From NCBI GenBank assembly GCA_036251765.1, contig JAZANL010000062.1, positions 1 through 57,536 on the forward strand: a DNA stretch of 57,536 bases, written 5' to 3'. Under the pieces are notes generated by a model. It searched no databases and was not told where the DNA came from. It saw only the letters and a list, made by a program, of their open reading frames with translations. Every line of letters starts with the position of its first letter. The first letter of the stretch is position 1. Both the position numbers and the translations under genes were made by a program. Shown piece after piece: positions 4,730 through 51,199 of this stretch. This DNA comes from Thermoplasmatota archaeon (GTDB lineage: Archaea; Thermoplasmatota; Poseidoniia; Poseidoniales; Thalassarchaeaceae).

Positions 4730-5182
4730 ATGGAGTGGACGAGGGTCGATGTCCAATCAGACGCCGAGATAGAGTCAATTGGTGGGCTGGCGGATCTGAA
4801 AGTTGGCCTTGACACAGATGCGGAGACTATGCATAGAGGATTCCTAAATGAGTTGCCACATCTCTCGGAAGTAATGGAGATGCACGATTCTGTAGTCTCT
4901 GACATAGAGTCCAGAGTCATTAGCGATTCTGTTTCCACTTTGGGGGAGTTTGTCTCTGAGTTCGGAGGGGAGTGGTCAGAGTCTGAAATCAGACTACCAT
5001 TGGAAAAAACCAACAAGCGCGAGTTTGCCATCGAGACCACGATTGAGAATGACTCTCAGATTGTCAGGATGATTGTTCCAGAGAGGTTTGGAGGAATGAT
5101 CAGAACATTTCGTCTCCCCGAGGGAAGGAGCGTTTCCGGAGCAATTTGGGAAGGCGAATTCGTCACAATCAAGTTGGATTGA
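4730..5182 (+). CDS. Acidic hypothetical protein with a possible Hsp20/alpha-crystallin-like C-terminus
   Basis: The ATG at 4730 avoids overlap with xpd. The C-terminal VRMIVPERFGGMIRTFRLPEGRSVSGAIWEGEFVTIKLD resembles the ACD pattern (F-R-x-F-x-LP...G-x-L-x-I). The functional call is weak. Confidence 0.45.
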   Translation: MEWTRVDVQSDAEIESIGGLADLKVGLDTDAETMHRGFLNELPHLSEVMEMHDSVVSDIESRVISDSVSTLGEFVSEFGGEWSESEIRLPLEKTNKREFAIETTIENDSQIVRMIVPERFGGMIRTFRLPEGRSVSGAIWEGEFVTIKLD

Positions 5183-5183
5183 G

Positions 5184-8100
5184 TCACTCATCGATCTCGA
5201 AGTGCATCTCTCTCTTTGGAATGTCTTGAATGGCCTCAATCTCCTGCATCACCGAAGAGAGGGCTAATTGCGCATTATCCCTGTGAGTGTCACCTAGAAC
5301 ATGACTTGAGTATCTTGCCTCCTCGAAAATCCGATCCAGTGAAACCAATGAAGCCTCGCTGATGGGCAGAGCCTCCCGAATCGCGTGCTCGAACTCCCTG
5401 ACTGTCTCGAAGTTCCTACGTAGGAAGCCCCTGCGCATCAAGACCGAACACATGTTCTCGTAGCATAGGAAGATGGCCCTGCGGTATTCATCGCCAGATG
5501 CAAGCATCTCCACGGTCTGTCCCAGAACCTTGGCTAGCTCCCTTATCGTTGACTTCCTCTTCCTATTGAATGCCAGTGCACCGATGGCTATCGCGACCGC
5601 TGCCACCAACAGTGCTCCCAGTGCAGCTGTTGCACTGCCGAAGAATGAGTCGCTCTCTTGCTTCTCATAACTAATGGACACGCCTGATTGGGGCAGAAGA
5701 GCCAGGCTCCCGGGATCGATGAAATCGGAGTCCGAGGAAATCAGCACTGCGAGGAGCCCCCATCCCTCGGGAGGTAGTGACTGTTCGGACAGAGCAGGCA
5801 AGGGGGCCATTGACTTGAATTCGTACTGGAAGACGCCGTCTTCCCCGGTTAACTTAGAGACGGAGAAGTGAGTGGTGCTCCCATTGACCAGGCTAGCAGT
5901 AAGGGATAGGCCCTCAAGAGGGGCTCCGGTATCCCTTGCAGTGGCATTTACTGTCCCCCTGATTACTCTCTGGCCGTTTGAGAGATCCAGTTCGGAGTAT
6001 TCGAAGTCGACCTCGATCATAACCAGAATCTCGACTTCCTCGGAAACTCCGTTGAGGAACCTGGACTGGTCTGAATCGACCACTATTGTGATGATGTTCT
6101 CACCCGGATGCATGAACTCCTGGGCCTTTGCTCTAATTTGGAAGTTCATCGTGCTTGGATTCTCCCATGGCCCGGAGCTGATTGGCAAATTTGATTCCCC
6201 CCAGGTTAGACTCATGGAAAGGTTGGCGAATATTGCTGATTCGCCTCCGACTTCCCTAACAAGCCCCTGTATCATTATCGAGCTGGATGGGGAAGCGTCT
6301 CCTCGGATAATCGTATTAGTAATGGGTTGAACCTCGACTACTATGTCAGACAGGGCAAATACCTGGGAGACGGCCTCTGTAGGCAGGTAGAGGAACTCGC
6401 CAGCGAAAGTGAATGAGACGTTGTGGGAGCCCCTGCTTAATGCGTATTGCACCCTATGGCTGTATGAGAAGAACCCGCCCTCTCCGGTGACGACCAATTC
6501 AACCTGAGACCCATCCAGAAGGACTGAAACCTCTCTTCCCTCGAGTCCCTGCTCGAATCCAGTGTCAGACTCGAAGAGTCGTCCAGTGAAGTTCCAGTGC
6601 CCTCCCCTAGTAACATAGGTCTGTTCTACCTGATGAGAGATTGAGGTGTGATATGAAACAGTGAAATTTGACTCCGTCATTCCCTGCCTGTAGAATCCTT
6701 GTTCTGGGGAGATAGCAGAGATAGAGTGATTTCCTACGTCCATTGATTCTGGGATCGTCCACTCCAAGGACCAAAGCCCATTTTCCTGGCTGCTGGTTAT
6801 GCCCACTAGGACCCCATCGACAAAAATCTCGATTGTTTGGCTTCCTAGCCAACCATCCTCTAGGTTGTCCTTAGCGGAACCTGAAATCAACATGGTGTCG
6901 CCAACCGCTATTGGCCCGATTTGTTCCATTGTTACGAATACCGGAGAAAATACTGTGAAGACTACGGAGGACTCCGAGGGGAGGAGGAAATCCTCGCCTG
7001 CGAACTCTATCCCGATAATCATCGGACCGAGCGTCATGTCTGGTGCGATTGGGACAAAGCCGGTGAATGACCCGTTTCCATCCACCGAAATTGCAGATAG
7101 CTCCTCCCCATTCACAGTCATGACTAGGTCTCTGCTTGGTATTACTCGACCTACCCCATCTGTTAGAATTCCCTCTACTACTGCCACCTCTGTTCTGTCA
7201 ATTTCAGCAGGAGCGGTGGAAATTACCACTTGAGTTGGTTGGGTCACATTGAACGCCATTGAGTCCGAGGATCCCAAGTAGTATTCTGGATTTAGTGAGT
7301 CACCTTGACCCATCGGGTCCACCCAAGAAAATCCGCCTAGGAAATCTACCCGAGCCGTATGGGTTCCGAAGTCCATATCCGAGGGGATTTGGTATGTGAT
7401 TGACCACTGACCGGTTGTAGCGTTGGAGACTGTTGTGTAGGAGGGGCCTACGTCAATACCATCAATGTACAGATGGATCAAGCCTCCAGTGGAGTTGCCA
7501 TCGGCCTTCAGAAGTTGTCCTCTTTCATCCAATAGAGAGCCGACCAATGTTACTGAACCGCCTGCTATGGATGGGGAGGAGGCTTCCTTCAGAACTAGGT
7601 CTGTCGGCGCTAGGACGACTACCCTGGTCCATGCCTCGTCGCCCAGAAGTCCAATTGTTCCGTTGATTCCAGAGAACGTTGCCGTTACCACCATTGGCCC
7701 TGGGTCCCTGTCTGGCCTAACCAGTATTGATGCTGATGCGGTCCCATTAGAATCAGTCAGGCCGCCCCAAACCGTGATATTGTCGATTCTTACAACTATA
7801 GTAGCAGAAATAACTGGTCCACCGGCGTTATCTATCAAGGAGAGGGAGATGTCGAAAGTGTCTCCCCTGATTGTCCTGTTATCGGGATCTAGGTCGTCTG
7901 GGTTCTCTATTGTTAGAACGGAAAAGCCTCTGCTATCAAAGGTTGCAAATCCAGATGCAGAGGAGAAATATGTTACCTGGGGTGTGAAGGAAATTTCCAA
8001 TCCATGTGGGCCTCGGGGGAAGGACAAGTCGAGTCTAATTTCAGCCAACCAAGTACCATCGGAATCGAATGTGACTTGTGAAACAGTGAATGTATTCGAG

Positions 8101-11100
8101 TCCCCATCAATGGAGAATGTCAGCGTGGGGTTCAATGGGTTTCCAGAAGTGTCAGACAATCCTGATCCATTACTAGATGTCAGAGAGCCGGTGACATTGA
8201 AGAATTCCCCCGGCAGTGGGTTCGCGGTGATCGGGTCGATTACCATGGTAGCAGAGGATCTGACTGTTATTGTGTTCAATATCTGCACCGCTTGATGGAG
8301 GTCTTCTGATCCGTTGAAGACGAAAGTGACGTTCACAAGGCCAAGTGGGTGATCGTGGGGGACCTCGAATTCGAAGGCCACGCTTCCATCGGCGGATGTG
8401 ACTCCTGGATCGAGCCATGTGTCGTGGAAAAGAGCCAGAACTTCGAAGCCCGAGAGTGGTTGCTCGTTGTTGCTGAACTCCACTAGTCTAGTCGTAATGG
8501 TGATAGATTCTCCTCTGTCAACAATTGTATTCACAAATGGATTGGAATCTACGAATTGAGAAACTCCAACCACCAGTATTGATTCCACTCCGTTTCCTGT
8601 CAGGTAGAATGGTGTTGAACCGTTAACTACACTGACGACAACTGTCCTTTCCCCCCTGATTACTCCATTTCCTAGAGTATCCGTTGGGACTGTGAGATTG
8701 AATGCACCAGTCATATTCGTAGTTTGGTTTTCAATCAGAAGTTCTTCGGGTTCGTCTAGGAAGAACACACTAATTCCGACCGGTCCATCTACGGTCCTAT
8801 TTACATCGACTGAATCCATCACATTACCTACTAGGTTGAAGGATTGGAGAGCAGTGACTTGAGAGGGTATCGAGGAGATCTCGACCGAGCTAGCCACCTG
8901 CACGGTTAGGTTCACAAAGCTCTCGTTGCCGAGCCACCTTCCTGCATCTGGTGTAGCGAAGGTGTCAGAGAGGTCGTCGGGTGCGTGCACCCTGATGTCG
9001 TAGAATCCTGGTGGGGCCGAGGAAGGAACAATTGGATCGAAGGAAACGACTCCTTGGGAGTCCGTAGTCCCTGATTGGAGTATTGTCTGGAGGGGGCCTC
9101 CCCAGTCGAAATAGAGGTCCAGAGAAACCCCGGACAATGCTGCATTGGGGTCCTCGACATCTGTAACAGTGGAATTAAGGATCAATTCTTCTCCAGCAGT
9201 AACGATCGTAGATTCGGGTTCGGTCTGGACTACGAACTCGGTCTGAACGCCCACACTGATTGTTGTCGGATCTCCCGGGTTGTAGTAACTCCCTCCTACT
9301 GGCGGGTTTCCAGAGAAGCTCAAAGTTACGTCAATCTCGTATACACCGGAAGGAACACCTTGTGGGATCTCGAAGGAGAGATTGTATGCGCCTGTTGTTT
9401 CGTTTACCCAGCCATTAGCGATATTGTATATTGTGGGTGCTGCTGGGAAACCACCAGGAGTGGGAGGGAGATCTGATGGTATCAGGAGTTGGACCGTTAC
9501 TGAGGTGTTGTTCCCTGTAATCTGATTCTGCAACACCATGTCATTCGCGAATCCGGATATCCAGTTTGTAGAACCTCTGACTGACCACTCGTTGGAGAGG
9601 CTTGCAGATGCATTGCCCATCCCCCTGACCCTTAGTACTCCAGAGGTGGAATTAGCGCTGAGCCAAGTAGAGCCACCATAACTCAGGTTCCAATCATAGT
9701 CCCCGGGCGTCATAGTGAACGGGGGGATGAAGGTTGGAGTGACCCTTCCAGCTTCAGGATCTGTTTCGTTCCAAACAGCTCCGCCATCAAAAATTAGAGC
9801 GTATTCCCCGTCGAAAGGAGCGAATGATGATCCTGTGTGATCCTCCAGGAATACGTCGACTGCATACTCTCTACCTCTGATGGCGAAGGGAAGCTCGTAG
9901 TCAAATACGATGAAACTTCGTATTCCGTAGATATCGACGAATTGCTCTTGATCGTTAGAGTTCAAGTCATCGGAATCGAACTGCAGGCGCACATCTACAG
10001 GTCCAGCGGGGAGGGGGACGTCGGAGGCGGAGAATGGCCAAGTGATGGAGAACTCACCCGGATTGGTTCCCCACGATGAGTTGTTGAGATACCACGTGGT
10101 GATCTCTTCGAATGGTCCCGAGAGGTCTGCCCTGCGCATCTCCAGAATCAATGTCCCATTGAGTGCCGTGGGAGATGGGCCCCTGCTTAGTACAGTGCCG
10201 TTCAGGTAGATATTGCTTCCAATCTCCAGAATCGAGTTATTCTGACCTTGGGAGTTGATCTCTGCCGTCAGGTTCGGGGATAGCGTGATGTTGAGCTTGA
10301 AAGGATTGACCTCGGGAAAGGCATGGTATGATGGCGTAGTGGCATTGTTCAAGTCGTCGAAATGCCAGCCTTCGAAGGAAATTGCGGCATCCATCAAACC
10401 AAGTGGTTCAGCCTCATCTATTGGGACGATGAACTCATAGTATCCTCCACCAGATACGCCCGAAACTATCGACACTTCGCCGTCCACATCCGAGGAGTAG
10501 TTCAAAATGACCTGTAGGTCATCAACAACTGATGGGTCTAGGAATGGCGAACTTGACCAAGATAGTTGTCCCGTTATAGACGAGTTTACCCCGATTCCGA
10601 GCATTGGTTGCCCCACTGGAATTGGGCTGGTGATAGAAAGTGATACAGTGTCTGTGATATTGATCTGCCAAGGCATCGAAATCCCTTGCGTGCCGACATA
10701 ACCCATCTCGGTGGTGAGGATCACCAAAGAGCCGAACCCTGGCTGAATTATTTGGGGTGGTAGGCCTGTTAGATTGAATGAGCCATTTTCGTCGGTTGTT
10801 ACATTTGCGACCTTGTGCTCAACTATTGCTGCGCTCCCGGGCACCAACTCTGCCTGACTTGGTTCGACCAAGTACATTGAGAGTGAGATGTTTGCGACCA
10901 TGGTCTGGTTTTCCACAAACTCCAATGCCCCCTGGACCCAAATGGGTTCGGACGACGTGGTGTTCCTCTGGACTGATGTTGGCCCCCAAGACTCCACATT
11001 AACCCTTACTTCTGACATCGGAGGGCATGCTTCGAAGGGGATCCAACCAAGATCTAACTCACCTTGGTTCTGATTAGTCTGCAGATGGACCTCTGCCCAC

Positions 11101-14100
11101 CTTGTGAAATCCTTTCCATATACGTTGAATGCCTTTCCATCCCATGTTCCTCCCGAAAAGCCAGTGACCTTGCGTGCCGGGATTCCCGCTATCCTGAGCA
11201 TAGTAACGAAAACAGAGGTGAATTCATCGCAATCACCCTCCCTGGATGAGTTTAGAATCCAATGTGTGACATCGCTATCGACTCCAAGTCCGCTTTCTCT
11301 ACCAGAACCATAGTGATTCCTGAGGAAAGAGAATGTGTCATTGCCGTTCACAATGAAATCCTGGATAGCAGTGACCTTGTCCCAAGCAGATATGGCTCCC
11401 GACTGATCCAGAATATCCTGGGTTAGGTTAGCGACGAAACCGGAGCTGTTCATGAATTCCTGAGGTAGGTCCTTGCCGTAATCGGAGCCAGAGAAAGCTG
11501 TCGAATTCTCACGGATTGCAGCAGACAATATCACCTCAGGGGCATTGACATACAGTGCCTCTATGACGGCACTATCGACGATTATGTCGCGAGTGTAGTT
11601 GGAAAAGTTGAGTCCGGCCGAATTATCTACCCAAGTAGTGTAATTCACTACATTGTACGGCTGAATTAGCTCCTGCCCGGGGCCGATGTACCCTGCTTCA
11701 TCGAATACGATCTCCCATGATAGTGGTCCCGAGTGATTCCAGAAAGATTGGTCGGCTACACCTTGTTCTGTGGAGAATTCTGGAATGACTGGGGTATTTC
11801 CAACTAGAGTACTATTCACTCCCCAAGACACCCCAGTATAGAAGTCATAGGTGTGCCATCTCCAATAGTGCTTGACCGTTGGATCCAATCCCTCTGAGCT
11901 ATTGGTTGCAGTGAACATGAGTGCGTTCTGCTGGATGTCGTCACTGGGGTCGAAGGGGTCACTAGGTGACCCGATGCAATCGAGGACCCAGAAATCCTCT
12001 GGGCATTCTTCTCCGTCGGGCACCCCGCCTCCATCAGAATCAGGATCTAGCCAGTCAGTTCCTAACTCCTGTTCGATTAGGTCCGGGATTCCGTCTCCAT
12101 CGGTATCAAGTGGGTTGATGTCGTCATCTGGATTGTCTTGGGGGTTTGTTCCGTCTAGGTATTCCTGACCATCCTCTACACCACCATTGTCAGAATCGGC
12201 TACGTTCCAGAGAGTGAACCAGACATCTGAAGTGAAATTCCCGCCGAATCCGAAACCCCCGATTCCAAAAATCATCGAGCAACCGGTGGTATTCTCGAAA
12301 TAGTTGTTGAGGCCGTCCTCATCGGTATCGAGAAGATTGTGGCAGGGCTCTCTTGGGTCTGTGAGATTCAGAATTTCGGATAGGTCATTGACGCCATCAC
12401 CATCGGTATCGTAGAGTGTCGGGTCCGATAAGTACCCCCACGCTGCTGTCAATTCCTCCCAGTCTGCAAGACCATCGCCGTCCGAATCCTTGTAGTCATC
12501 ATCGCACCATGGGTCGTTAGTTGCATTGGCAGAGGCATCCCAGCACCAAGACCCATTGGTGAACAAAATCGTTGCCGCGCCGACGGGGGGTTCTGCATCA
12601 ACTCCCTTCAGGAATGATGGCTCCTCCAAGGACACGTAGCTGAACGGGGTAAGCGTCCCATTGGGGGATACATAGTGACCCATTGGTGCGTTACCCCTCC
12701 AATCCACAGGGTCCGGATTGATCCCTAATGTGGAGTTGATAGTTAGCGTATCAGCATCCCCGTCCCAAGAAATAATCGTGAAGACGAGTTCGAAGATGGA
12801 GGTGCACGGATCAGTCTGCCCGGGGAATCCTTCGTCCCCGTCACTTATTCCTCCCCCATCGGAGTCGGAGACGTTCCACAGCGTGCAAGAGTTGTTCTCC
12901 TGCCAATTTTGTAGACCATCGCCATCAAAATCACCTTCGTCATTTATTCTCGTTGGATCGGTCTCCCCATCATCTATCACGCCATTTCCATTGAGGTCTT
13001 CCTCGCCATCATCCAGATGGTCCCCATCTGTGTTGTTGCTCCTAGGGTCTGATCCTTGGGCAGGGTCTCCGTACGAGCCATTGTATTCGATTCCGTCAAG
13101 GATTCCATCGGAGTCTGTATCTGGAGAAGTTGGGTCCGTAAGTAGGATAAGCCCCTCCAGGGAGTCATTTAGTCCATCTCCATCGGTATCGTTGTTCTGG
13201 GGGTCGGTTTGAGTGATGCCATCGACCTCAGCAGTAAAAATCCCACAGCCACCAGGGCCAAGAGAAAGTACTGGATTGCAAGGAGACTCTGTGATCGTCA
13301 TATTGATTGGACCGGGTCGGAAGTACTGTGTTGGGGGGAATGTCGATCCATTCCTGGTCCCCCATGCTGGGTTGACGTACTCGTAAATGTTTGATAGGCC
13401 GTCAGAGTCAGGGTCCCCGAAAGTCCCATCTTGATTTGAGTTAGATGTTGGATCGAGTCCATTTGCTGCCTCCCACCCATCCGGCATTCCGTCCCCATCC
13501 GTATCCCAACCGTTGGGATCCTCATCTTCGATTCCATCCCCGTCATCGTCATTGGAGCTGCAGTCGGCATCACCGTCGAAGTCCGGATCGTTAGAGTCGA
13601 CCATTCCATCGTGATCGTTGTCAAAAGTATCAGTGCATATGTTTCCGACTGGATCCTCGTCTGCACCGTCTGATCCAGAACCCTGAATCACTTGCATGGC
13701 ACTCTCCTCATCCCAGTTTGAAACGGGAATTGTCCCATTCCACCAGACCCCGTTGTCCAAGACGTTAGTAGTAGATGGCTCGTCCCAACCTGAAGGAATC
13801 CCATACAGATACTCGTTCAGGTTGGTGAGGCCATCGGAATCTGGGTCGCCAGTCGAGCCGTTGTCCCCCACCGAAGAGAGGGGGTCCAAACCATATTGCC
13901 ATTCCCATCCATCGGGAAGACCATCGTTATCTGAGTCCCAATCTTGAGGCTGTGTGTTGATTAGGAACTCAATCCCATAAGGGAGGCCGTCTGCATCCTG
14001 GTCGTTCACGGTGGCTGAAGCCTCGAATGCGGCTAACTGCATTGAGACTATGCTGGAAATGAGCATCAAGAAGGTCAGAAGTGTGGCGGATCGCTTCTGG

Positions 14101-14144
14101 GCTATCGACCCGGATTCTTCGAAATTTGAAGTCACTAACTGCAT
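5184..14144 (-). CDS. Giant (2,986 aa) type-I membrane surface protein: signal peptide, TSP3-like Ca-binding repeats, transglutaminase-like core, Ig-like module array, TM helix, DUF4129-like cytosolic tail
   Basis: Uninterrupted ORF. N-terminal hydrophobic segment ATLLTFLMLISSIVSMQLAAFEASA. About 19 DxDxDG-type motifs in aa 45-720. EGDCDEFTSVFVTMLRIAGIPARKVTGF (TGase core) at aa 969-996. Recurrent D/N-x-x-G-x-F ... G-x-H-x-V-x-F-x-G modules in aa 1640-2610. TM FFGSATAALGALLVAAVAIAIGALAF at aa 2834-2859. The tail has EYRRAIFLCYENMCSVL...TVREFEHAI...LDRIFEEARYSSHVL. Confidence 0.9.
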   Translation of the reverse strand: MQLVTSNFEESGSIAQKRSATLLTFLMLISSIVSMQLAAFEASATVNDQDADGLPYGIEFLINTQPQDWDSDNDGLPDGWEWQYGLDPLSSVGDNGSTGDPDSDGLTNLNEYLYGIPSGWDEPSTTNVLDNGVWWNGTIPVSNWDEESAMQVIQGSGSDGADEDPVGNICTDTFDNDHDGMVDSNDPDFDGDADCSSNDDDGDGIEDEDPNGWDTDGDGMPDGWEAANGLDPTSNSNQDGTFGDPDSDGLSNIYEYVNPAWGTRNGSTFPPTQYFRPGPINMTITESPCNPVLSLGPGGCGIFTAEVDGITQTDPQNNDTDGDGLNDSLEGLILLTDPTSPDTDSDGILDGIEYNGSYGDPAQGSDPRSNNTDGDHLDDGEEDLNGNGVIDDGETDPTRINDEGDFDGDGLQNWQENNSCTLWNVSDSDGGGISDGDEGFPGQTDPCTSIFELVFTIISWDGDADTLTINSTLGINPDPVDWRGNAPMGHYVSPNGTLTPFSYVSLEEPSFLKGVDAEPPVGAATILFTNGSWCWDASANATNDPWCDDDYKDSDGDGLADWEELTAAWGYLSDPTLYDTDGDGVNDLSEILNLTDPREPCHNLLDTDEDGLNNYFENTTGCSMIFGIGGFGFGGNFTSDVWFTLWNVADSDNGGVEDGQEYLDGTNPQDNPDDDINPLDTDGDGIPDLIEQELGTDWLDPDSDGGGVPDGEECPEDFWVLDCIGSPSDPFDPSDDIQQNALMFTATNSSEGLDPTVKHYWRWHTYDFYTGVSWGVNSTLVGNTPVIPEFSTEQGVADQSFWNHSGPLSWEIVFDEAGYIGPGQELIQPYNVVNYTTWVDNSAGLNFSNYTRDIIVDSAVIEALYVNAPEVILSAAIRENSTAFSGSDYGKDLPQEFMNSSGFVANLTQDILDQSGAISAWDKVTAIQDFIVNGNDTFSFLRNHYGSGRESGLGVDSDVTHWILNSSREGDCDEFTSVFVTMLRIAGIPARKVTGFSGGTWDGKAFNVYGKDFTRWAEVHLQTNQNQGELDLGWIPFEACPPMSEVRVNVESWGPTSVQRNTTSSEPIWVQGALEFVENQTMVANISLSMYLVEPSQAELVPGSAAIVEHKVANVTTDENGSFNLTGLPPQIIQPGFGSLVILTTEMGYVGTQGISMPWQINITDTVSLSITSPIPVGQPMLGIGVNSSITGQLSWSSSPFLDPSVVDDLQVILNYSSDVDGEVSIVSGVSGGGYYEFIVPIDEAEPLGLMDAAISFEGWHFDDLNNATTPSYHAFPEVNPFKLNITLSPNLTAEINSQGQNNSILEIGSNIYLNGTVLSRGPSPTALNGTLILEMRRADLSGPFEEITTWYLNNSSWGTNPGEFSITWPFSASDVPLPAGPVDVRLQFDSDDLNSNDQEQFVDIYGIRSFIVFDYELPFAIRGREYAVDVFLEDHTGSSFAPFDGEYALIFDGGAVWNETDPEAGRVTPTFIPPFTMTPGDYDWNLSYGGSTWLSANSTSGVLRVRGMGNASASLSNEWSVRGSTNWISGFANDMVLQNQITGNNTSVTVQLLIPSDLPPTPGGFPAAPTIYNIANGWVNETTGAYNLSFEIPQGVPSGVYEIDVTLSFSGNPPVGGSYYNPGDPTTISVGVQTEFVVQTEPESTIVTAGEELILNSTVTDVEDPNAALSGVSLDLYFDWGGPLQTILQSGTTDSQGVVSFDPIVPSSAPPGFYDIRVHAPDDLSDTFATPDAGRWLGNESFVNLTVQVASSVEISSIPSQVTALQSFNLVGNVMDSVDVNRTVDGPVGISVFFLDEPEELLIENQTTNMTGAFNLTVPTDTLGNGVIRGERTVVVSVVNGSTPFYLTGNGVESILVVGVSQFVDSNPFVNTIVDRGESITITTRLVEFSNNEQPLSGFEVLALFHDTWLDPGVTSADGSVAFEFEVPHDHPLGLVNVTFVFNGSEDLHQAVQILNTITVRSSATMVIDPITANPLPGEFFNVTGSLTSSNGSGLSDTSGNPLNPTLTFSIDGDSNTFTVSQVTFDSDGTWLAEIRLDLSFPRGPHGLEISFTPQVTYFSSASGFATFDSRGFSVLTIENPDDLDPDNRTIRGDTFDISLSLIDNAGGPVISATIVVRIDNITVWGGLTDSNGTASASILVRPDRDPGPMVVTATFSGINGTIGLLGDEAWTRVVVLAPTDLVLKEASSPSIAGGSVTLVGSLLDERGQLLKADGNSTGGLIHLYIDGIDVGPSYTTVSNATTGQWSITYQIPSDMDFGTHTARVDFLGGFSWVDPMGQGDSLNPEYYLGSSDSMAFNVTQPTQVVISTAPAEIDRTEVAVVEGILTDGVGRVIPSRDLVMTVNGEELSAISVDGNGSFTGFVPIAPDMTLGPMIIGIEFAGEDFLLPSESSVVFTVFSPVFVTMEQIGPIAVGDTMLISGSAKDNLEDGWLGSQTIEIFVDGVLVGITSSQENGLWSLEWTIPESMDVGNHSISAISPEQGFYRQGMTESNFTVSYHTSISHQVEQTYVTRGGHWNFTGRLFESDTGFEQGLEGREVSVLLDGSQVELVVTGEGGFFSYSHRVQYALSRGSHNVSFTFAGEFLYLPTEAVSQVFALSDIVVEVQPITNTIIRGDASPSSSIMIQGLVREVGGESAIFANLSMSLTWGESNLPISSGPWENPSTMNFQIRAKAQEFMHPGENIITIVVDSDQSRFLNGVSEEVEILVMIEVDFEYSELDLSNGQRVIRGTVNATARDTGAPLEGLSLTASLVNGSTTHFSVSKLTGEDGVFQYEFKSMAPLPALSEQSLPPEGWGLLAVLISSDSDFIDPGSLALLPQSGVSISYEKQESDSFFGSATAALGALLVAAVAIAIGALAFNRKRKSTIRELAKVLGQTVEMLASGDEYRRAIFLCYENMCSVLMRRGFLRRNFETVREFEHAIREALPISEASLVSLDRIFEEARYSSHVLGDTHRDNAQLALSSVMQEIEAIQDIPKREMHFEIDE

Positions 14145-14219: not shown

Positions 14220-17171
14220 CTATATTAGCTCGACATCCTCGTCGTCGTACCTATCTGGGCCCCTAGCTTCCTCGACCGTAACTGGGGCCGGGATCTCAGG
14301 TGGGTTTTCTTCTACTGATACATCATCCTCGGAAAGTGACTCCAGCATTCTCATCTGAGCGGCCCATCTCCTCCTATTGAGTCTGCTCTGAACTCCAGCA
14401 AACAGCAATAGTACGCTGACCAAAACCAGAACAAGGGTGATTGGCCTAGGGTGGGCCATTTCGTTAACGATTATATCGACGAAGGACCCTATCTCGACTA
14501 TCGCCGTAAGAGTGAACTTGGCTGTTAGAGACTCGGAGAAGCTCTGTTCAGTGTCTAGTGGCGTGGCTGTAACTGTAATCGGAATTGAGTCCCCATTGTT
14601 CGCCGAACTAGATACTGAAACTTCGACCGTAAATGTCGCCTCGTCAAAGGCCTCAATTTCAATCAATGGGGAACCGGAGAGCCCCCCAATGCTGACATCC
14701 CAACCACTCTCGTCGACATCGGCTTCCAGAAGAACTGTCATTGGGCTGTTTCCTTCATTCTTCACCTTCATCTGAATAGAATAGTCATTTCCAGGTGCAA
14801 GTTTAGTGTTCTGAGATACTTGAACAATCTCCAACATAGGTTGGTCTGCTTCGATTTCGAATGTCATTGGCAGATCGAAGTATCTCGGGTCATCGTCTTC
14901 TATGTCCTCTACTATCCTAAGGTAAACTGTATGATTCCCGACCTCCACCTGATTGGTCAGAGTCACGCTGAGGAAGACCTCGGTGAAGTCCCCCGGTCCA
15001 AGGGATACCCGAGGGACTGCTTCTCCGTCCGAGTTTGTTATCCTGAACTCCCATTGGCCGTAAGCGGGATTTCGGTCTGTATTTTCTTTCAATGAGGCTG
15101 GATTTTGAAGAAGCCACCATGATGCTGCCTCCAAATCAGTCTCACTATTTGTCAAACGAGCCCTGAAGTCCAATACGGGCCTATCCTGTCCCGGAGCACA
15201 AAGTGCCACCTTCATGTGGCCGAGGGGAGTCCCATCACAATCCTGCGATACCTCTCCCCTAATGCCATATGTCCTCTGGATGGTGAATGAAACCGTAGTT
15301 GTTGTAGAGGCATTTCCTCCACTGATAACTTCTATCTCTATCTCTCCGATGTCCTCATCCTCTCTATCCAAACTTGGCTTCACCCCTAGGATTAGGACCT
15401 TGGTGCTGTGCCTCTCCAGCAGGGGGGTGTGGAAAGTTCCGTCACCCTCGTCTTGGAGTATCCGTTGACCAGTTAGGTTGTCGTGCAACTGGAAGATTGA
15501 TTTAGATCTCTTCAGAATGTCTATCCTGAATGTGTCGGCATCGAAACCGGTGTTGAAAATCTCCAGAATAAACGGGTTGAATTCCCCATACTCTGCGAAT
15601 CTGGGGATGGTGGAATCCAGTGCGTCGCCCCTGGAAGAGTTCGCTATCGGAATTTTGTGATCTTCTGACCAAACCGAAACCACAGGGGGTTGATAGACGT
15701 CAATCTTCTCGACGTTTAGGACAAGCGTATCCTGATGGACTACGGAGATGACGCCATCCACATCGGCCTCGGCTACTGCGCGAATCTCAATCTTCTTCGG
15801 CATCCCAGTCAGGTCATCTGGGGCAGTTAGTGTCACAGTGGGATTGATTACTGTACCTCCGGAGCTCATCTCGTATCCTGCCGGGGAGTCGAACTCAACC
15901 AACCAAGAGCTACCTAGGTTGGTCAAAACCTCGAGTTCTACGTTCATGGACTTGGTGGAATCTCCCCTATGGACAAGAACCATGGGCACGGGAGTGACTT
16001 TGCCTGGTGCGAAGTATTCGACTGATCGATCGAACCTATGTTTGATTGACACTCCAAACTGATGCATCTCGATTGGTTCGTGCTCTATTTCGATTTCGTT
16101 TCCACCCACGTCCCTGACTCTCAGAAATACGGTATACTCGCCTGGTGGAAGCCCACTATCATAGGTATAGAGGAACTTGCCAAATATTCCTGTGCTTGAG
16201 TCCTCTATGTCCTCCATGTCCCCAGTGATCCTCTCGTCGACCTCATAGTTTCCATCTGGACCCCGCATAAGGATGTCAACCCTTGAGATGTCGGCACGGC
16301 CAAATGCACTGATTGCGTCAATGGAGAACTGCATCTCTCTGTCCTCAACAATGTCGTTAGGGTACCAATCTATCTCCGAACCCTCGGCAATGTTCGCACC
16401 TTCCCTCTGAACCACAATGATGCTGTTCATCAGTGCATTACCGTTTGTCTCCATCTTGGAGAATTTGTTTGGCTCGTTATCGATATTGTTGAAGGCAACA
16501 TCTGCAGAACAGCTAGAACCGCCGAACGGACTGTCGCTACTGTCGCACCCGGACATGCTGGCCCTAACTCTAATGATGAGACGCTCGTTCTTCCCAACTT
16601 GGAAAGATTGAGAATTGCCGATACCCACATCTATAATCTCATGATCGAAATCGCAACTGCTTCCAAATGATGAGGAGCAAACCGAACCGGAGTATGTTGT
16701 TGAACCAATTGTTCTCTCAGAGGTCATAATTGAAACTGTCCAATCGACATTTGAATTCTGAGAACCCTCTGACTTGAGGAATAGTTCAACTGGTATGTAG
16801 TATGAGTCATTTGCATGGAACTTCCTCCCGAAAAATTCCATAGACGACATCAATGATATGGACATGAATTGTACATCGTCATCCAAGGCGCTTGCCACTT
16901 CCTGGTCATCATTGCCCTCAGGAGGCTGAGTGCTAATCAGTCCGTCCATTCCAGCAGTCTGGTTCTGTCCTGCTTGTACGAAATATAACTTGTACAAGTT
17001 GGCATCCGGTGCGCTTTCGGAGGCATTGAATGGGGCGTAATCGGAAAGTTCTGAAGTTTCCAAATCTAAGCTGGTGGGGATGAGCATCAATAATGCCAAT
17101 GACAGTGAGACCAGTGTGGTTTGACGCACAGAGGGGCGGTGATTCCTATTTCGCACGATTGTGCGCCGCAT
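14220..17171 (-). CDS. 983-aa secreted, C-terminally membrane-anchored protein with CARDB/NEW3-like beta-sandwich repeats (COG1470-like)
   Basis: N-terminal signal-anchor TTLVSLSLALLMLIPTSL. Recurring V-x-N-x-G ... GW patterns (MKVKNEGNSPMTVLLEADVDESGWDVSIGG, LEIFNTGFDADTFRIDIL, LEVLTNLGSSWLVEFDSPAGY). C-terminal TM PITLVLVLVSVLLLFAGVQ followed by RLNRRRW and an acidic tail. It lies 75 bp upstream of the giant gene on the same strand. Confidence 0.85.
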   Translation of the reverse strand: MRRTIVRNRNHRPSVRQTTLVSLSLALLMLIPTSLDLETSELSDYAPFNASESAPDANLYKLYFVQAGQNQTAGMDGLISTQPPEGNDDQEVASALDDDVQFMSISLMSSMEFFGRKFHANDSYYIPVELFLKSEGSQNSNVDWTVSIMTSERTIGSTTYSGSVCSSSFGSSCDFDHEIIDVGIGNSQSFQVGKNERLIIRVRASMSGCDSSDSPFGGSSCSADVAFNNIDNEPNKFSKMETNGNALMNSIIVVQREGANIAEGSEIDWYPNDIVEDREMQFSIDAISAFGRADISRVDILMRGPDGNYEVDERITGDMEDIEDSSTGIFGKFLYTYDSGLPPGEYTVFLRVRDVGGNEIEIEHEPIEMHQFGVSIKHRFDRSVEYFAPGKVTPVPMVLVHRGDSTKSMNVELEVLTNLGSSWLVEFDSPAGYEMSSGGTVINPTVTLTAPDDLTGMPKKIEIRAVAEADVDGVISVVHQDTLVLNVEKIDVYQPPVVSVWSEDHKIPIANSSRGDALDSTIPRFAEYGEFNPFILEIFNTGFDADTFRIDILKRSKSIFQLHDNLTGQRILQDEGDGTFHTPLLERHSTKVLILGVKPSLDREDEDIGEIEIEVISGGNASTTTTVSFTIQRTYGIRGEVSQDCDGTPLGHMKVALCAPGQDRPVLDFRARLTNSETDLEAASWWLLQNPASLKENTDRNPAYGQWEFRITNSDGEAVPRVSLGPGDFTEVFLSVTLTNQVEVGNHTVYLRIVEDIEDDDPRYFDLPMTFEIEADQPMLEIVQVSQNTKLAPGNDYSIQMKVKNEGNSPMTVLLEADVDESGWDVSIGGLSGSPLIEIEAFDEATFTVEVSVSSSANNGDSIPITVTATPLDTEQSFSESLTAKFTLTAIVEIGSFVDIIVNEMAHPRPITLVLVLVSVLLLFAGVQSRLNRRRWAAQMRMLESLSEDDVSVEENPPEIPAPVTVEEARGPDRYDDEDVELI

Positions 17172-17272: not shown

Positions 17273-17358
17273 GCAGGGGTACCCGAGTTGGTCAAAGGGG
17301 CCGGACTTAAGCTCCGGTGCTTAGTGCTTCATGGGTTCGAATCCCATCCCCTGCACCA
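17273..17358 (+). tRNA. tRNA-Leu(UAA): tRNA-Leu (anticodon UAA), type II with long variable arm, CCA encoded
   Basis: Manual cloverleaf. Acceptor GCAGGGG/CCCCTGC. Anticodon stem CCGGA/TCCGG with loop C-U-UAA-G-C (U33 present). T arm ATGGG-TTCGAAT-CCCAT. 13-nt variable region. Discriminator A followed by CCA. The variable-arm pairing is weak (2 bp). Confidence 0.85.
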
Positions 17359-48572: not shown

Positions 48573-49739
48573 ATGTCAAGTGAAAGCAACAACATAATCG
48601 ACATCGATGGCAGCCTGAGAATATTGGGGACTGCCCATGTCAGTAGTGAATCGGTGCACCTAGTTACGAGTCAGATCGAAGAATGGGGTCCAGACTTGGT
48701 TGCAGTTGAGCTGTGTCCATCGAGAATGGACGCATTGAAGAAACCAGACTCGCTAGAATCTGAGGACCTTCTGAAGATTATCAAAGAGGGCAGGTCGGGA
48801 ATGATTCTCCTGCAATCTGCACTTGCTGCGCAACAGAGGAGGATGGGGGTGTCATCGGGAGAGAAGCCCGGGGCAGAGTTACTTGCGGCGGTGGAAGCGG
48901 CAGAGGAGTCCGGAGTCCCCGTGGAAATGATCGACAGGGATGTTTTAATCACCTTGAGGAGGGCTTGGAGGAAGATGGGTTTTATCGAGAAATGGAGGAT
49001 TCTGAACACCTTGCTTTGGGAAGAGGACGACGACGATATTTCAATTGACGAGGTGCTAGGAGACTCAGACCTTCTCAGCAGCATGATGGAGGAAGCAAGG
49101 GAGATTGCCCCTGCAGCAGGAGAAGTTCTGATTGACGAACGCGACTCTTTCCTTGCCGGAAGGATTCAGCAGATCCGAGGGAAGGGAAAGGTTCTGGCGG
49201 TAATCGGTGCCGGACACCTCAACGGTGTTGCTCACAATTTGGGAGAGCCTGCAATCGAAACGACATCTAGGTTGGCCGAGCTTAGCAAGGAGCCCCCCAA
49301 GGCAATCTGGCCGAGGGTGCTGATGGCAGCAATTCCAATCTTCCTTCTTGGGGCGGTTGCATGGATGGTTGTGAATGGAGAGTTGGAAGCACTGAAGCAG
49401 ACTGCGCAGACTTGGCTGATATTGAACGCGGCGCTGGCGGGGGCAGGAGTCCTAATTGCTAGGGGCCACCCTCTCTCGATTCTTGTGGGGGCAATAGCAT
49501 CCCCAATCACCTCCCTAAATCCAACTCTGGCAGCTGGGTGGTTCGCAGGATATACGCAGCTAAAGGTGGCTTCACCCACTGGCAAGGATGCACAGGACTT
49601 CCTGGTCCTTGACGAGGTTTCCCTATTCTGGAAGAATCGCGTAGGGAGGGTCCTATTGGTCACGATGATGGGGAATATTGGTTCTATGGCGGGTGCCTGG
49701 CTTGCTGGAGGAGCCATCCTGAAAATTCTCCTAGGTTGA
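48573..49739 (+). CDS. TraB/PrgY-family protein with C-terminal membrane domain
   Basis: ILGTAHVSSESVHLVTSQIEEWGPDLVAVELCPSR, AVIGAGHLNGV, then 4-5 TM segments. Confidence 0.8.
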   Translation: MSSESNNIIDIDGSLRILGTAHVSSESVHLVTSQIEEWGPDLVAVELCPSRMDALKKPDSLESEDLLKIIKEGRSGMILLQSALAAQQRRMGVSSGEKPGAELLAAVEAAEESGVPVEMIDRDVLITLRRAWRKMGFIEKWRILNTLLWEEDDDDISIDEVLGDSDLLSSMMEEAREIAPAAGEVLIDERDSFLAGRIQQIRGKGKVLAVIGAGHLNGVAHNLGEPAIETTSRLAELSKEPPKAIWPRVLMAAIPIFLLGAVAWMVVNGELEALKQTAQTWLILNAALAGAGVLIARGHPLSILVGAIASPITSLNPTLAAGWFAGYTQLKVASPTGKDAQDFLVLDEVSLFWKNRVGRVLLVTMMGNIGSMAGAWLAGGAILKILLG

Positions 49740-51190: not shown

Positions 51191-51199
51191 GGTGATTGA

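What the first reader, a model, noticed from the sequence alone, without database searches (positions are those of the whole stretch)
5184..14144. Giant 2,986-aa surface protein built on a transglutaminase/DUF4129 scaffold
One uninterrupted 8.96 kb ORF encodes six parts:
- a signal peptide (aa 20-44);
- about 680 aa of thrombospondin-type-3-like Ca-binding repeats;
- a transglutaminase-like core (aa 960-1045);
- about 1,780 aa of beta-sandwich modules;
- one TM helix (aa 2834-2859, nt 5568-5645);
- a 127-aa cytosolic tail with a DUF4129-like pattern (nt 5187-5567).

TGase core plus TM plus DUF4129 is the known bacterial/archaeal TgpA-type layout. Here both flanks are expanded with adhesin-type repeats to roughly 3-4 times the usual size. 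No MoxR ATPase or DUF58/vWA partner, which often accompany such TGase proteins, is present in the window. This combination may be a distinct cell-surface cross-linking or adhesion machine.
Basis: partly seen in the sequence, partly recalled or inferred. Interest (0 to 1): 0.75.

Follow-up and report, generated by a model that had tools for sequence, protein, structure and literature searches.

The report
Giant dead-transglutaminase surface protein of MGII archaea
This 9-kb gene is real and encodes a giant, heavily glycosylated cell-surface protein found in many Marine Group II archaea (abundant, uncultured ocean plankton); its transglutaminase-like domain has lost a key catalytic residue, so it is more likely an envelope or adhesion scaffold than a cross-linking enzyme.

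Summary
Window 5184-14144 (-) is one 2,986-aa ORF. It has a signal peptide, about 690 aa of Ca-binding TSP3-like repeats and a TgpA-like transglutaminase-fold domain. About 1,770 aa of diverged beta-sandwich modules follow, then one TM helix and a cytosolic DUF4129 helical bundle. Transglut_core and DUF4129 pass Pfam thresholds.

- **Not a rare combination.** It is a full-length, length-constant family (2,937-3,017 aa among 120 homologs at 40-90% identity; 3,088 aa at about 30%). It occurs in at least 488 loci of species-representative genomes. All 78 listed records are Poseidoniales/MGII or only broadly named archaeal MAGs, and both MGII families are named among the hits. Public databases already label it generically "transglutaminase domain-containing protein".
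- **Catalytic triad broken clade-wide.** Cys972 is invariant. The canonical His is never His. The canonical "DPT" Thr is an invariant Cys1040, probably disulfide-paired with Cys972. A canonical cross-linking enzyme is therefore unlikely.
- **Not TgpA proper.** It lacks the DUF3488 five-TM bundle. No MoxR or DUF58 gene lies nearby in the window or in the loci with Pfam-annotated neighbours.

A 950-980-aa membrane-anchored beta-sandwich protein sits directly upstream throughout the family.

Best reading: a non-catalytic envelope/adhesion scaffold derived from a TgpA-type ancestor. Interest is moderate.

The parts
5184..14144 (-). Complete gene for the 2,986-aa giant protein (stop codon 5184-5186)
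   Evidence: Single ORF. Full-length orthologs at 30-91% identity occur in independent assemblies.
14013..14144 (-). N-terminal signal peptide (aa 1-44; hydrophobic core aa 19-41; 'AFEASA' end)
   Evidence: Kyte-Doolittle scan found only two hydrophobic segments in the protein. Sequence checked. Cleavage is inferred, not shown.
11955..14012 (-). Ca-binding thrombospondin-type-3-like repeat region (aa 45-730) with six conserved Cys pairs
   Evidence: 12 strict DxDxDGxxDxxE motifs. TSP3_bac 23.5 bits, below its cut-off of 25. Partial CglD and MtsD hits. One of the two most conserved regions of the protein. Cys714 and Cys723 are lost together in 7 of 121 sequences.
10965..11954 (-). TgpA-like ectodomain with transglutaminase fold (aa 731-1060; Pfam core aa 922-1039 = nt 11028-11381)
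   Evidence: Transglut_core 49 bits and 20/20 members. PDB sequence hit to TgpA 6G49. AF2 model pLDDT 88.2 with best Foldseek hit 6G49, E 2.8e-13.
11229..11231 (-). Codon of Cys972, the position of the TGase nucleophile (invariant)
   Evidence: Cys in 121/121 sequences. Aligned to the Cys of TgpA. Codon checked.
11103..11105 (-). Codon of Thr1014, the position of the canonical catalytic His (lost)
   Evidence: Aligned to the His of 'DAHAWVEY' in TgpA. T66/A21/S16/D8/G4 are the commonest residues in the family, and the domain has no invariant His. Nearly all outgroup cores have His here.
11025..11027 (-). Codon of Cys1040, which replaces the Thr of the canonical [DE]PT motif (invariant)
   Evidence: Cys in 121/121 sequences. 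Also Cys in the distant clade members P0280, P0247, P0245 and P0243; most outgroup cores that align there have Thr. With Cys972 it is the only Cys between aa 724 and 2893.
5649..10964 (-). About 1,770 aa of diverged beta-sandwich modules (aa 1061-2832), roughly 16 units of about 110 aa; the presumed stalk
   Evidence: Sub-threshold MG2, bMG3 and CarboxypepD_reg hits. Big_3_5, MG4, SpaA and Big_1 hits in orthologs. Weak internal repeats with a period of about 105-115 aa. 52 N-glycosylation sequons. No Cys, so no thioester.
5559..5648 (-). Single transmembrane helix (aa 2833-2862)
   Evidence: Highest hydropathy peak, 2.58. Modelled as a continuous helix in the AF2 model of the tail.
5187..5558 (-). 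Cytosolic tail (aa 2863-2986) with a DUF4129 helical bundle (Pfam aa 2894-2959 = nt 5268-5465)
   Evidence: DUF4129 above its cut-off and in 25/25 members. AF2 pLDDT 84.6, TM helix plus four further helices. No sequons. 21 invariant residues in aa 2901-2950, including 'RRxFETVREFE' and 'FExARYS'.
14220..17171 (-). Conserved upstream partner gene: 983-aa ORF with an N-terminal hydrophobic segment, a beta-sandwich ectodomain, a C-terminal TM helix and a short acidic tail
   Evidence: Translation. Hydrophobic segments at aa 19-38 and 905-932. Weak NPCBM_assoc and FixG_C hits; NPCBM_assoc passes its cut-off in the L084 ortholog. Upstream on the same strand in every related locus with enough upstream flank, directly adjacent in nearly all. 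Orthologs share 30-47% identity where the giant shares about 40-44%. Only 75 nt separate it from the giant gene.
4730..5182 (+). Small convergent ORF (about 150 aa, acidic, soluble) abutting the giant gene's stop. Its position is conserved; whether it belongs to the system is unknown
   Evidence: Found by tblastn at the same place in most related loci. Called as a 125-166-aa gene. No Pfam hit.

Best explanation
The gene encodes a conserved, vertically inherited giant type-I membrane glycoprotein of the Marine Group II (Poseidoniales) cell envelope. Members are named for both MGII families.

**Shown**
- One N-terminal signal-like segment and one C-terminal TM helix put about 2,790 aa outside the cell and a 124-aa DUF4129 helical bundle inside.
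- The ectodomain is strongly acidic and enriched about 2.7-fold in N-glycosylation sequons.
- From the N-terminus it reads: Ca-binding TSP3-like repeats with conserved Cys pairs, a TgpA-like transglutaminase-fold domain, then about 16 diverged beta-sandwich modules.
- The TGase domain keeps the nucleophile Cys972. It has lost the catalytic His, and the Thr of the canonical [DE]PT motif has become an invariant Cys1040.

**Inferred**
- The C-terminal anchor and the beta-sandwich run form a membrane-proximal stalk. It presents the TGase-like domain and the Ca-loaded TSP3 region at the distal end.
- Cys972 and Cys1040 form a disulfide. This turns the former active site into a non-catalytic structural or ligand-binding pocket, i.e. 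a pseudoenzyme.
- The protein works as an envelope or adhesion scaffold, binding particles, algal or cell-surface polymers, or neighbouring envelope proteins. It probably acts together with the upstream 950-980-aa membrane-anchored beta-sandwich protein, which may be co-transcribed.
- The highly conserved cytosolic DUF4129 bundle ties it to an unidentified conserved cytoplasmic partner.

It descends from TgpA-type TGase/DUF4129 membrane proteins but is not a TgpA and probably not an enzyme.
For: **Architecture and topology:**

**Surface glycoprotein**
- 80 sequons against 29.4 +/- 4.7 in shuffles, all in the ectodomain and none in the tail.
- Sequon density is about 2.9 per 100 aa against 0.25 in 12 cytoplasmic proteins of the same window.
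- The family median is 85 sequons, and 52 of the 80 query sites are kept in at least half of the family.

**Disulfide logic**
- The 14 ectodomain Cys fall into 7 sequential pairs, all conserved.
- Cys714 and Cys723 are lost together in 7 of 121 sequences.
- Cys972 and Cys1040 are the only Cys between aa 724 and 2893, and both are present in 121/121 sequences.

**Loss of the triad**
- His aligns to Thr1014 against TgpA.
- The family profile at that position is T/A/S/D/G, and the TGase domain has no invariant His.
- Nearly all outgroup cores keep His, and those that align through the motif mostly have Thr. The whole clade, including the 30%-identical P0280, has no His and has Cys.

**A fixed structural role rather than a variable adhesin**
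- Lengths are 2,937-3,017 aa at 40-90% identity and 3,088 aa at 30%.
- The internal repeats are old and diverged.

**Breadth and vertical inheritance**
- At least 488 loci in species-representative genomes; all 78 listed are Poseidoniales/MGII or only broadly named archaeal MAGs.
- Hits are named for both Thalassarchaeaceae and Poseidoniaceae.
- Synteny is constant: lipA-SDR-(FolB)-partner-giant-small ORF-XPD.

**Tail under the strongest constraint:**

**Literature:** Rinke et al. noted widespread 'thrombospondin' genes in Poseidoniales and read them as adhesion genes (PMC6461757).
Against: - No expression, localisation or binding data exist for this family in the literature I could search.
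- The Cys972-Cys1040 disulfide is inferred from conservation and pairing. The structure tool returns no coordinates, so the S-S distance could not be measured.
- An invariant Cys at the nucleophile position would also fit a non-canonical catalytic or redox site.
- The extreme conservation of the cytosolic tail is not explained by a passive scaffold.
- The partner is not sequon-enriched (7 found, 7.1 expected), so the two proteins may not share the same surface biology.
- Co-transcription with the partner is not shown.
- Adhesion targets are unknown.
Confidence: 0.55

Rival explanations
1. It is an active surface enzyme. The TGase-fold domain uses Cys972 with a non-canonical partner (for example Cys1040, Glu/Asp1038 or His1020) to cross-link, trim or deamidate envelope proteins or captured substrates. 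This is essentially the first reader's 'cross-linking machine'.
For: - Cys972 is invariant, and the fold is that of the active enzyme TgpA.
- TgpA has TGase activity in vitro (PMC3507681).
- TGase-like domains elsewhere act as endoisopeptidases or deamidases (PeiW/PeiP and WbmE, cited).
- The W1016-x-E1018 and G1033-W1034 motifs are kept.
Against: - The catalytic His is absent in all 121 members and in the distant clade members.
- The Asp position varies, including Q, N and K.
- His1020 is present in only 94 of 121 sequences.
- The second invariant Cys, in an oxidising extracellular setting, and the paired behaviour of the other ectodomain Cys favour a disulfide.
Confidence: 0.2
2. Together with the upstream 983-aa protein it forms the main proteinaceous wall (an S-layer-like lattice) of MGII cells. 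This would be analogous to two-component archaeal S-layers whose genes are adjacent, and would not be primarily an adhesin.
For: - It has typical features of archaeal surface-layer glycoproteins (my own knowledge): wide distribution in one order and a constant size, a signal peptide, heavy sequon load, a strongly acidic composition, a C-terminal TM anchor and an adjacent co-oriented second membrane-anchored beta-sandwich protein.
- A weak Foldseek hit to the SbsB S-layer protein exists, but only at E about 1e-3 and low probability.
Against: - At about 3,000 aa it is far larger than the S-layer proteins I know of (my own knowledge).
- Both proteins carry their own TM anchor.
- A conserved folded cytosolic domain is not a feature of S-layer proteins.
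- No abundance data are available.
- No S-layer family hit appeared in Pfam or NCBIfam.
Confidence: 0.15
3. The long ORF is an assembly chimera, a fusion of several genes, or a decaying pseudogene.
For: Nothing specific. It is only a general risk for 9-kb repeat-containing ORFs in metagenome assemblies. One related locus (L055) has the frame split.
Against: - The same end-to-end architecture and length occur in at least 120 protein clusters and dozens of independent contigs, including single-cell and long-read assemblies.
- GC content is even across the gene.
- Conservation runs along the whole length.
Confidence: 0.01

Closest known systems
TgpA (PA2873) of Pseudomonas aeruginosa and the TgpA-type COG1305 membrane proteins (DUF3488 + Transglut_core + TM + DUF4129)
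   Same: - The extracytoplasmic TGase-fold domain is homologous over the whole TgpA periplasmic domain. TgpA is the only PDB sequence hit and the best Foldseek hit, 6G49 at E 2.8e-13.
- The order TGase domain, then TM helix, then cytosolic DUF4129 is kept.
- The nucleophile Cys is conserved.
   Different: - It has no five-TM DUF3488 bundle, only a signal peptide.
- It is about 4.5 times longer than TgpA's 668 aa. About 690 aa of TSP3 repeats precede the TGase domain, and about 1,770 aa of beta-sandwich modules are inserted between it and the TM helix.
- The catalytic His is lost and the Thr of DPT is replaced by Cys. TgpA keeps the triad and is active in vitro.
MoxR-DUF58-transglutaminase clusters (e.g. 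the bifidobacterial PFNA cluster pkb2-fn3-aaa_atp-duf58-tgm; other giant multi-TGase proteins such as P0250 in L085)
   Same: - A membrane TGase-like protein is encoded next to a beta-sandwich (FN3-like) surface protein (PMC8430577).
- Other giant TGase-core proteins exist in metagenomes.
   Different: - No MoxR or DUF58 gene lies in the window or within 8-10 kb in the four distinct homolog loci whose neighbours carry Pfam calls. The giant P0250 has both immediately downstream.
- Most cores of those proteins keep the canonical His, and several carry 2-4 TGase cores.
Giant Ca-binding adhesins and archaeal adhesin-like proteins (SiiE, MpIBP-type RTX adhesins; TG-type ALPs of Methanobrevibacter and Methanosphaera)
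   Same: - A long run of Ig-like or beta-sandwich modules serves as an extender, combined with Ca-binding acidic motifs.
- Weak Foldseek hits to invasin, intimin and MpIBP Ig-like domains.
- Some archaeal ALPs also combine Ig-like repeats with a TG-like domain (PMC11532034).
   Different: - Its module number and length are fixed across an entire order, rather than varying between strains.
- It is anchored by a C-terminal TM helix with a conserved cytosolic domain.
- No pseudomurein-binding repeats or beta-helix domains were detected.
- The methanogen TG-type ALPs are short and anchored at the N-terminus.
Thrombospondin type-3 repeats / bacterial TSP3 proteins (CglD, MtsD of Myxococcus)
   Same: DxDxDGxxDxxE Ca-binding motifs interspersed with disulfide-forming Cys; partial NCBIfam hits to CglD and MtsD.
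   Different: Only the repeat region matches: 96 bits against the CglD cut-off of 400. There is no vWA domain and no lipoprotein signal.

Membership tests
Transglutaminase-like superfamily (Pfam PF01841 Transglut_core) | HMM match above the gathering threshold | tested here: met
   49.2 bits against a cut-off of 23, aa 922-1039. All 20 family members scanned also match.
Transglutaminase-like superfamily | Papain-like TGase fold | tested here: met
   AF2 model of aa 730-1170, pLDDT 88.2, pTM 0.88. Foldseek hits: TgpA 6G49 at E 2.8e-13, then FXIII, TG2 and 3ISR.
Transglutaminase-like superfamily (active enzymes) | Cys-His-Asp catalytic triad | tested here: not met
   Cys972 is invariant. The His position is T/A/S/D/G among the commonest residues. 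The Asp position is E64/D36/Q10/N7/K2. The domain has no invariant His. Nearly all outgroup cores keep His.
TgpA family (DUF3488/TgpA_N + TGase + DUF4129) | N-terminal DUF3488 bundle of five TM helices | tested here: not met
   There is only one N-terminal hydrophobic segment, aa 19-41. The TgpA_N hit is sub-threshold (12.8-15.6 bits against a cut-off of 30) and covers only profile positions 213-256, in the extracytoplasmic part of the protein. TgpA topology is taken from PMC3507681.
TgpA family | Extracytoplasmic TGase domain followed by a TM helix and a cytosolic DUF4129 | tested here: met
   The order is kept, but about 1,770 aa of beta-sandwich modules lie between the TGase domain and the TM helix.
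DUF4129 (Pfam PF13559) | HMM match above the gathering threshold | tested here: met
   26.5 bits in the whole protein and 33 bits in the isolated tail, against a cut-off of 24.8. 25 of 25 members match.
MoxR-DUF58-TGase gene clusters | Adjacent MoxR (AAA_3) ATPase and DUF58/vWA genes | tested here: not met
   Absent from the main ORFs of the 57.5-kb window and from the 8-10 kb flanks of the homolog loci whose neighbours carry Pfam calls. Presence elsewhere in MGII genomes was not tested.
Bacterial TSP3 repeat (Pfam PF18884) | HMM match above threshold, or the DxDxDGxxDxxE Ca-binding motif in tandem | tested here: inconclusive
   Pfam gives 23.5 bits against a cut-off of 25, yet there are 12 strict motifs. 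PF18884 is recorded for many orthologs. Ca binding itself was not tested.
Alpha-2-macroglobulin / thioester-containing proteins | MG domains plus a thioester (CGEQ) domain | tested here: not met
   MG2 and bMG3 hits fall below their cut-offs. There is no Cys at all between aa 1041 and 2893, so no thioester motif is possible.
Archaeal TG-type adhesin-like proteins (ALP group III) | N-terminal TM anchor, archaeal Big domains, C-terminal TG domain with pseudomurein-binding repeats | tested here: not met
   Here the anchor is C-terminal, the TG domain lies in the N-terminal third, and no pseudomurein-binding repeat was hit. The definition is taken from PMC11532034.
Archaeal S-layer proteins | Forms the regular outermost lattice; high abundance | not testable with these tools
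   Only indirect features are available: signal peptide, sequons, acidity and a C-terminal anchor. No S-layer HMM was hit.

The most novel reading that the evidence does not exclude
The giant protein and its upstream partner are the main envelope or attachment apparatus of the uncultured MGII archaea. An ancestral TgpA-type transglutaminase was converted into a disulfide-locked pseudoenzyme 'head' on a fixed-length stalk of about 16 modules. The invariant cytosolic DUF4129 bundle couples surface binding to a cytoplasmic partner. This would be an integrin-like outside-in anchoring or signalling device in archaea, and would give DUF4129 its first functional context.
Probability: 0.15. Interest if true: 0.7.

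Novelty: new variant of a known kind. Interest (0 to 1): 0.45.

Why it matters
Marine Group II archaea are described as the most abundant planktonic archaea of the surface ocean and remain uncultured (PMC6461757). I found nothing in the searchable literature about their cell envelope.

**Why the gene stands out**
- It is 9 kb long, roughly 0.5% of an estimated ~2-Mb genome (the genome size is my own estimate).
- It is kept at a fixed length and in a fixed genomic position in both MGII families, which suggests a core function.

**What follows if it is the major surface glycoprotein or adhesion scaffold**
- It becomes a concrete target for metaproteomics.
- It could supply antibodies or labels for cell sorting and enrichment.
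- It is a candidate virus receptor.
- It bears on how these cells attach to particles and algae.

**Value for family annotation**
- The clade-wide swap of the catalytic His for a small residue, together with Thr to Cys, looks like a clean natural case of a transglutaminase becoming a pseudoenzyme.
- It shows that DUF4129 can be conserved and presumably functional without local MoxR or DUF58 genes.

The sequences are already public and generically annotated, and the architecture is an elaboration of known domains. The advance is therefore one of interpretation, not the discovery of a new kind of system.

Tried and rejected
**Searches that gave nothing useful**
- PDB sequence search with the full-length family profile found only TgpA, plus one spurious antibody hit.
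- The tail profile against PDB sequences gave nothing significant: best hit a COMMD-like protein at E 0.79.
- Foldseek of the tail model gave only generic four-helix bundles (FAT, talin and vinculin-tail-like, cytochrome oxidase subunits), all at E > 0.1. No functional inference was drawn.
- Rfam and tRNA scans of the window found only tRNA-Leu.
- Literature searches for MGII + transglutaminase and for DUF4129 + transglutaminase returned no papers. The MGII transcriptome and niche papers do not mention the gene.
- Cluster look-up returned almost no organism names for the distant relatives.
- By eye, the C-terminus of the small convergent ORF resembled an Hsp20 domain. Pfam gave no hit at E<=1 in three orthologs, so I dropped the idea.

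**Readings considered and rejected**
- Alpha-2-macroglobulin-like thioester protein: no Cys in the MG-like region.
- Recently expanded, strain-variable repeat adhesin: length is constant and the repeats are old.
- Mis-assembly.

**Not attempted**
- Archaeal promoter prediction, because the available scanner covers only sigma-70 promoters. The 75-nt partner-giant spacer was inspected only by eye.
- Structure prediction of the partner.

Full report
**1. The observation**

The window carries a single uninterrupted ORF at 5184..14144 on the minus strand: 2,986 aa with an ATG start. The rest of the window is archaeal housekeeping. It includes an XPD/Rad3 helicase, aRF1, NOG1, ArgRS, class-I LysRS, a 2-oxoacid dehydrogenase/lipoylation cluster and carbamoyl-phosphate synthase. 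The nearest public relatives are named Thalassarchaeaceae, Poseidoniales or Marine Group II.

- **Hydrophobic segments.** Only two exist: aa 19-41 (signal peptide, ending AFEASA) and aa 2833-2862 (TM helix).
- **TSP3-like repeats.** Twelve strict DxDxDGxxDxxE motifs lie between aa 70 and 691. TSP3_bac scores just under its threshold (23.5 against 25), and there are partial CglD and MtsD hits.
- **TGase core.** Transglut_core matches aa 922-1039 at 49 bits against a cut-off of 23.
- **DUF4129.** It matches aa 2894-2959 at 26.5 bits against a cut-off of 24.8. The isolated tail scores 33 bits, and 25 of 25 family members match.
- **Beta-sandwich region.** The stretch between the TGase domain and the TM helix gives only sub-threshold MG2, bMG3 and CarboxypepD_reg hits. 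Family-profile self-searches show old, diverged repeats of about 105-115 aa, mainly in aa about 1580-2650. That amounts to roughly 16 modules.

**2. It is a real gene and a large family**

A search of 5.8 billion proteins gave 1,844 clusters at E<=1e-5. The best 120 nearly all cover 98-100% of the query (one truncated entry covers 89%), at identities from 90% down to 40%. The 120 full-length sequences I aligned are 2,937-3,017 aa long, median 2,983.

All 78 listed loci come from records named Poseidoniales, Thalassarchaeaceae or MGII, or only broadly named (Euryarchaeota, Methanobacteriota, Thermoplasmatota) MAGs. They include single-cell genomes and long-read MAGs.

A divergent ortholog, P0280 (3,088 aa), is about 30% identical end to end and has the same Pfam domain set. 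A search seeded with it also retrieved a member named Poseidoniaceae. Both MGII families therefore carry the gene.

In the related loci the gene is a single reading frame of about 2,950-3,100 codons, stop to stop. The only split frame in a locus that holds the whole gene is L055; shorter frames belong to contigs that end inside the gene. Mis-assembly is thus excluded for practical purposes.

Database names are generic: 'transglutaminase domain-containing protein', 'transglutaminase-like putative cysteine protease' or 'hypothetical protein'. I found no paper on this family. Rinke et al. only note widespread 'thrombospondin' genes in Poseidoniales as hints of adhesion.

**3. Gene neighbourhood**

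The gene order is the same in homologs at 40-58% identity, in the 30% ortholog and in the GTDB loci with enough flank:
- 2-oxoacid dehydrogenase operon;
- lipA;
- SDR;
- FolB (usually);
- a 950-980-aa protein;
- the giant gene;
- a small convergent ORF;
- XPD helicase.

The upstream protein (window 14220-17171, 983-aa ORF) has an N-terminal hydrophobic segment and a beta-sandwich ectodomain. It gives weak NPCBM_assoc and FixG_C hits here, and NPCBM_assoc passes threshold in the L084 ortholog. It ends with a C-terminal TM helix and a short acidic tail. It diverges in step with the giant: 47% and 30% identity in two loci where the giant is about 44% and 40% identical. The spacer between the two genes is 75 nt here. 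I treat it as a conserved partner; co-transcription is not shown.

No MoxR or DUF58 gene lies in the window, or within 8-10 kb of the homologs whose neighbours carry Pfam calls. By contrast, an unrelated giant multi-TGase/HEAT protein (P0250) has MoxR and DUF58 immediately downstream.

**4. The transglutaminase domain is TgpA-like but its triad is broken**

The only solved structure related by sequence is the periplasmic domain of P. aeruginosa TgpA, 6G49. An AF2 model of aa 730-1170 (pLDDT 88.2, pTM 0.88) matches 6G49 best: E 2.8e-13 over 315 columns. Factor XIII, TG2 and 3ISR follow.

In the phmmer alignment the TgpA nucleophile Cys aligns with Cys972. The catalytic His of 'DAHAWVEY' aligns with Thr1014 of 'DFTRWAEV'.

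Across 121 aligned family sequences:

| Position | Canonical role | Residues observed |
|---|---|---|
| 972 | nucleophile Cys | Cys in 121/121 |
| 1014 | catalytic His | T66, A21, S16, D8, G4 (commonest five) |
| 1038 | catalytic Asp | E64, D36, Q10, N7, K2 |
| 1040 | Thr of [DE]PT | Cys in 121/121 |

No His is invariant anywhere in the domain.

I then ran an exhaustive HMMER search of 1.84 billion representatives with aa 740-1100 and tabulated the core positions. Outgroups are TgpA-like proteins of 600-790 aa and other giants with 2-4 TGase cores. Nearly all their cores show AHxWxEV, and those that align through the next motif mostly show [DE]PT. The MGII clade, including P0280, P0247, P0245 and P0243, shows no His together with [DE]xCP. 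Loss of His and gain of the second Cys are therefore a joint signature of the clade.

**5. Evidence on the Cys pair and on surface exposure**

The protein has 16 Cys. Fourteen are in the ectodomain and fall into seven sequential pairs: 170/195, 289/300, 420/447, 534/547, 601/622, 714/723 and 972/1040. All are conserved. Cys714 and Cys723 are lost together in 7 of 121 sequences and never singly, as expected for disulfide partners. Cys972 and Cys1040 are the only Cys between aa 724 and 2893.

My inference is a Cys972-Cys1040 disulfide that closes the former active site. I recall from animal transglutaminases that the Thr of the DPT motif lies next to the nucleophile. That is memory, not a test, and the tools return no coordinates to check it.

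The ectodomain has 80 N-x-S/T sequons against 29.4 +/- 4.7 in shuffles, and the tail has none. The density is about 2.9 per 100 aa against 0.25 in 12 cytoplasmic proteins of the window. The family median is 85 sequons, and 52 of the 80 query sites are kept in at least half of the members. The protein is strongly acidic: 439 D+E against 101 K+R. These are typical features of an archaeal surface glycoprotein.

**6. The tail**

Conservation along the protein peaks in the TSP3 region and in aa 2901-2950. That 50-residue stretch has 21 invariant residues, including RRxFETVREFE and FExARYS.

The AF2 model of aa 2826-2986 (pLDDT 84.6) shows the TM helix running on into the cytosol, followed by four more helices that form a small bundle. 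It resembles nothing specific in the PDB. A folded, near-invariant cytosolic domain argues for a conserved intracellular partner, which I could not identify.

**7. What it most likely is**

*Shown:* a giant type-I membrane glycoprotein, conserved in both MGII families, with a fixed module count, a TgpA-derived domain lacking the canonical triad, and a conserved neighbour.

*Inferred:* the C-terminal anchor and the beta-sandwich run form a stalk that presents the pseudo-TGase domain and the Ca-loaded TSP3 region distally. The protein serves as an envelope or adhesion scaffold, possibly together with the partner. The DUF4129 bundle links it to something in the cytoplasm. I put this at about 0.55.

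*Rivals:*
- A non-canonical Cys-based enzyme, 0.2. The invariant Cys972 keeps this alive.
- The principal S-layer-like wall component together with the partner, 0.15.
- An assembly artefact, about 0.01.

**8. Comparison with known systems**

It works most like giant Ca-binding Ig-repeat adhesins and archaeal adhesin-like proteins. Some of those also carry TG-like domains (PMC11532034).

It descends from TgpA-type TGase/DUF4129 membrane proteins (PMC3507681). It is not a TgpA: the five-TM DUF3488 bundle and the catalytic triad, both defining features, were tested and not met.

It is not part of a MoxR-DUF58-TGase cluster of the PFNA kind (PMC8430577). It is not an alpha-2-macroglobulin either, because the MG-like region has no Cys and so no thioester.

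**9. Verdict**

What is new here:
- the clade-wide pseudoenzyme signature;
- the fixed length;
- the conserved partner and synteny;
- the distribution across both MGII families.

I rate it a new variant of a known kind, with interest 0.45.

Noticed in passing
window 4730-5182 (+): A small acidic soluble ORF of about 150 aa, convergent with the giant gene and ending 1 nt from its stop. Its position is conserved in most related loci (called as 125-166 aa). No Pfam hit at E<=1 in three orthologs. A by-eye resemblance of its C-terminus to Hsp20 was not supported.
   Followed up: partly
window 17273-17358 (+): A tRNA-Leu(TAA) gene, the only RNA gene detected in the window. It sits between FolB and the partner gene, on the opposite strand.
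   Followed up: no
L085 8001-21315 (protein P0250), and other proteins: A separate set of giant proteins (1.3-3.9 kaa) carries 2-4 tandem TGase cores. Most cores keep the canonical His, and some have Cys replaced by Ser. P0250 (2,801 aa) also has HEAT repeats, and MoxR (AAA_3) and DUF58 genes lie immediately downstream. Their organisms are unknown.
   Followed up: partly
window 49736-53926 (+): A fused 4Fe-4S/NrfD-like membrane protein is followed by a 908-aa molybdopterin oxidoreductase. GC content rises from about 0.50 to 0.53-0.57 in the last 15 kb of the window. This could be a respiratory module worth checking against the nitrate-reductase acquisitions reported for some Poseidoniales.
   Followed up: no
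L001 4416-6839; L068 and L078 between partner and giant: The otherwise rigid synteny has local insertions. L001 has an 807-aa He_PIG/YHYH protein upstream of the partner. L068 and L078 have about 1.9 kb inserted between the partner and the giant gene.
   Followed up: no
window 14220-17171 (-): The partner protein is not enriched in N-glycosylation sequons (7 found, 7.1 expected), unlike the giant (80 against 29). Gene callers also disagree on its start: 947, 956 or 983 aa. Only the longest form includes the charged N-terminus and the complete hydrophobic signal-like segment.
   Followed up: partly
L004 26438-28916 (-): In one related locus, about 7.5 kb downstream of the giant gene, lies another very large surface-type gene: at least 1,936 aa with a weak CARDB hit. 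MGII genomes may therefore encode several giant envelope proteins.
   Followed up: no
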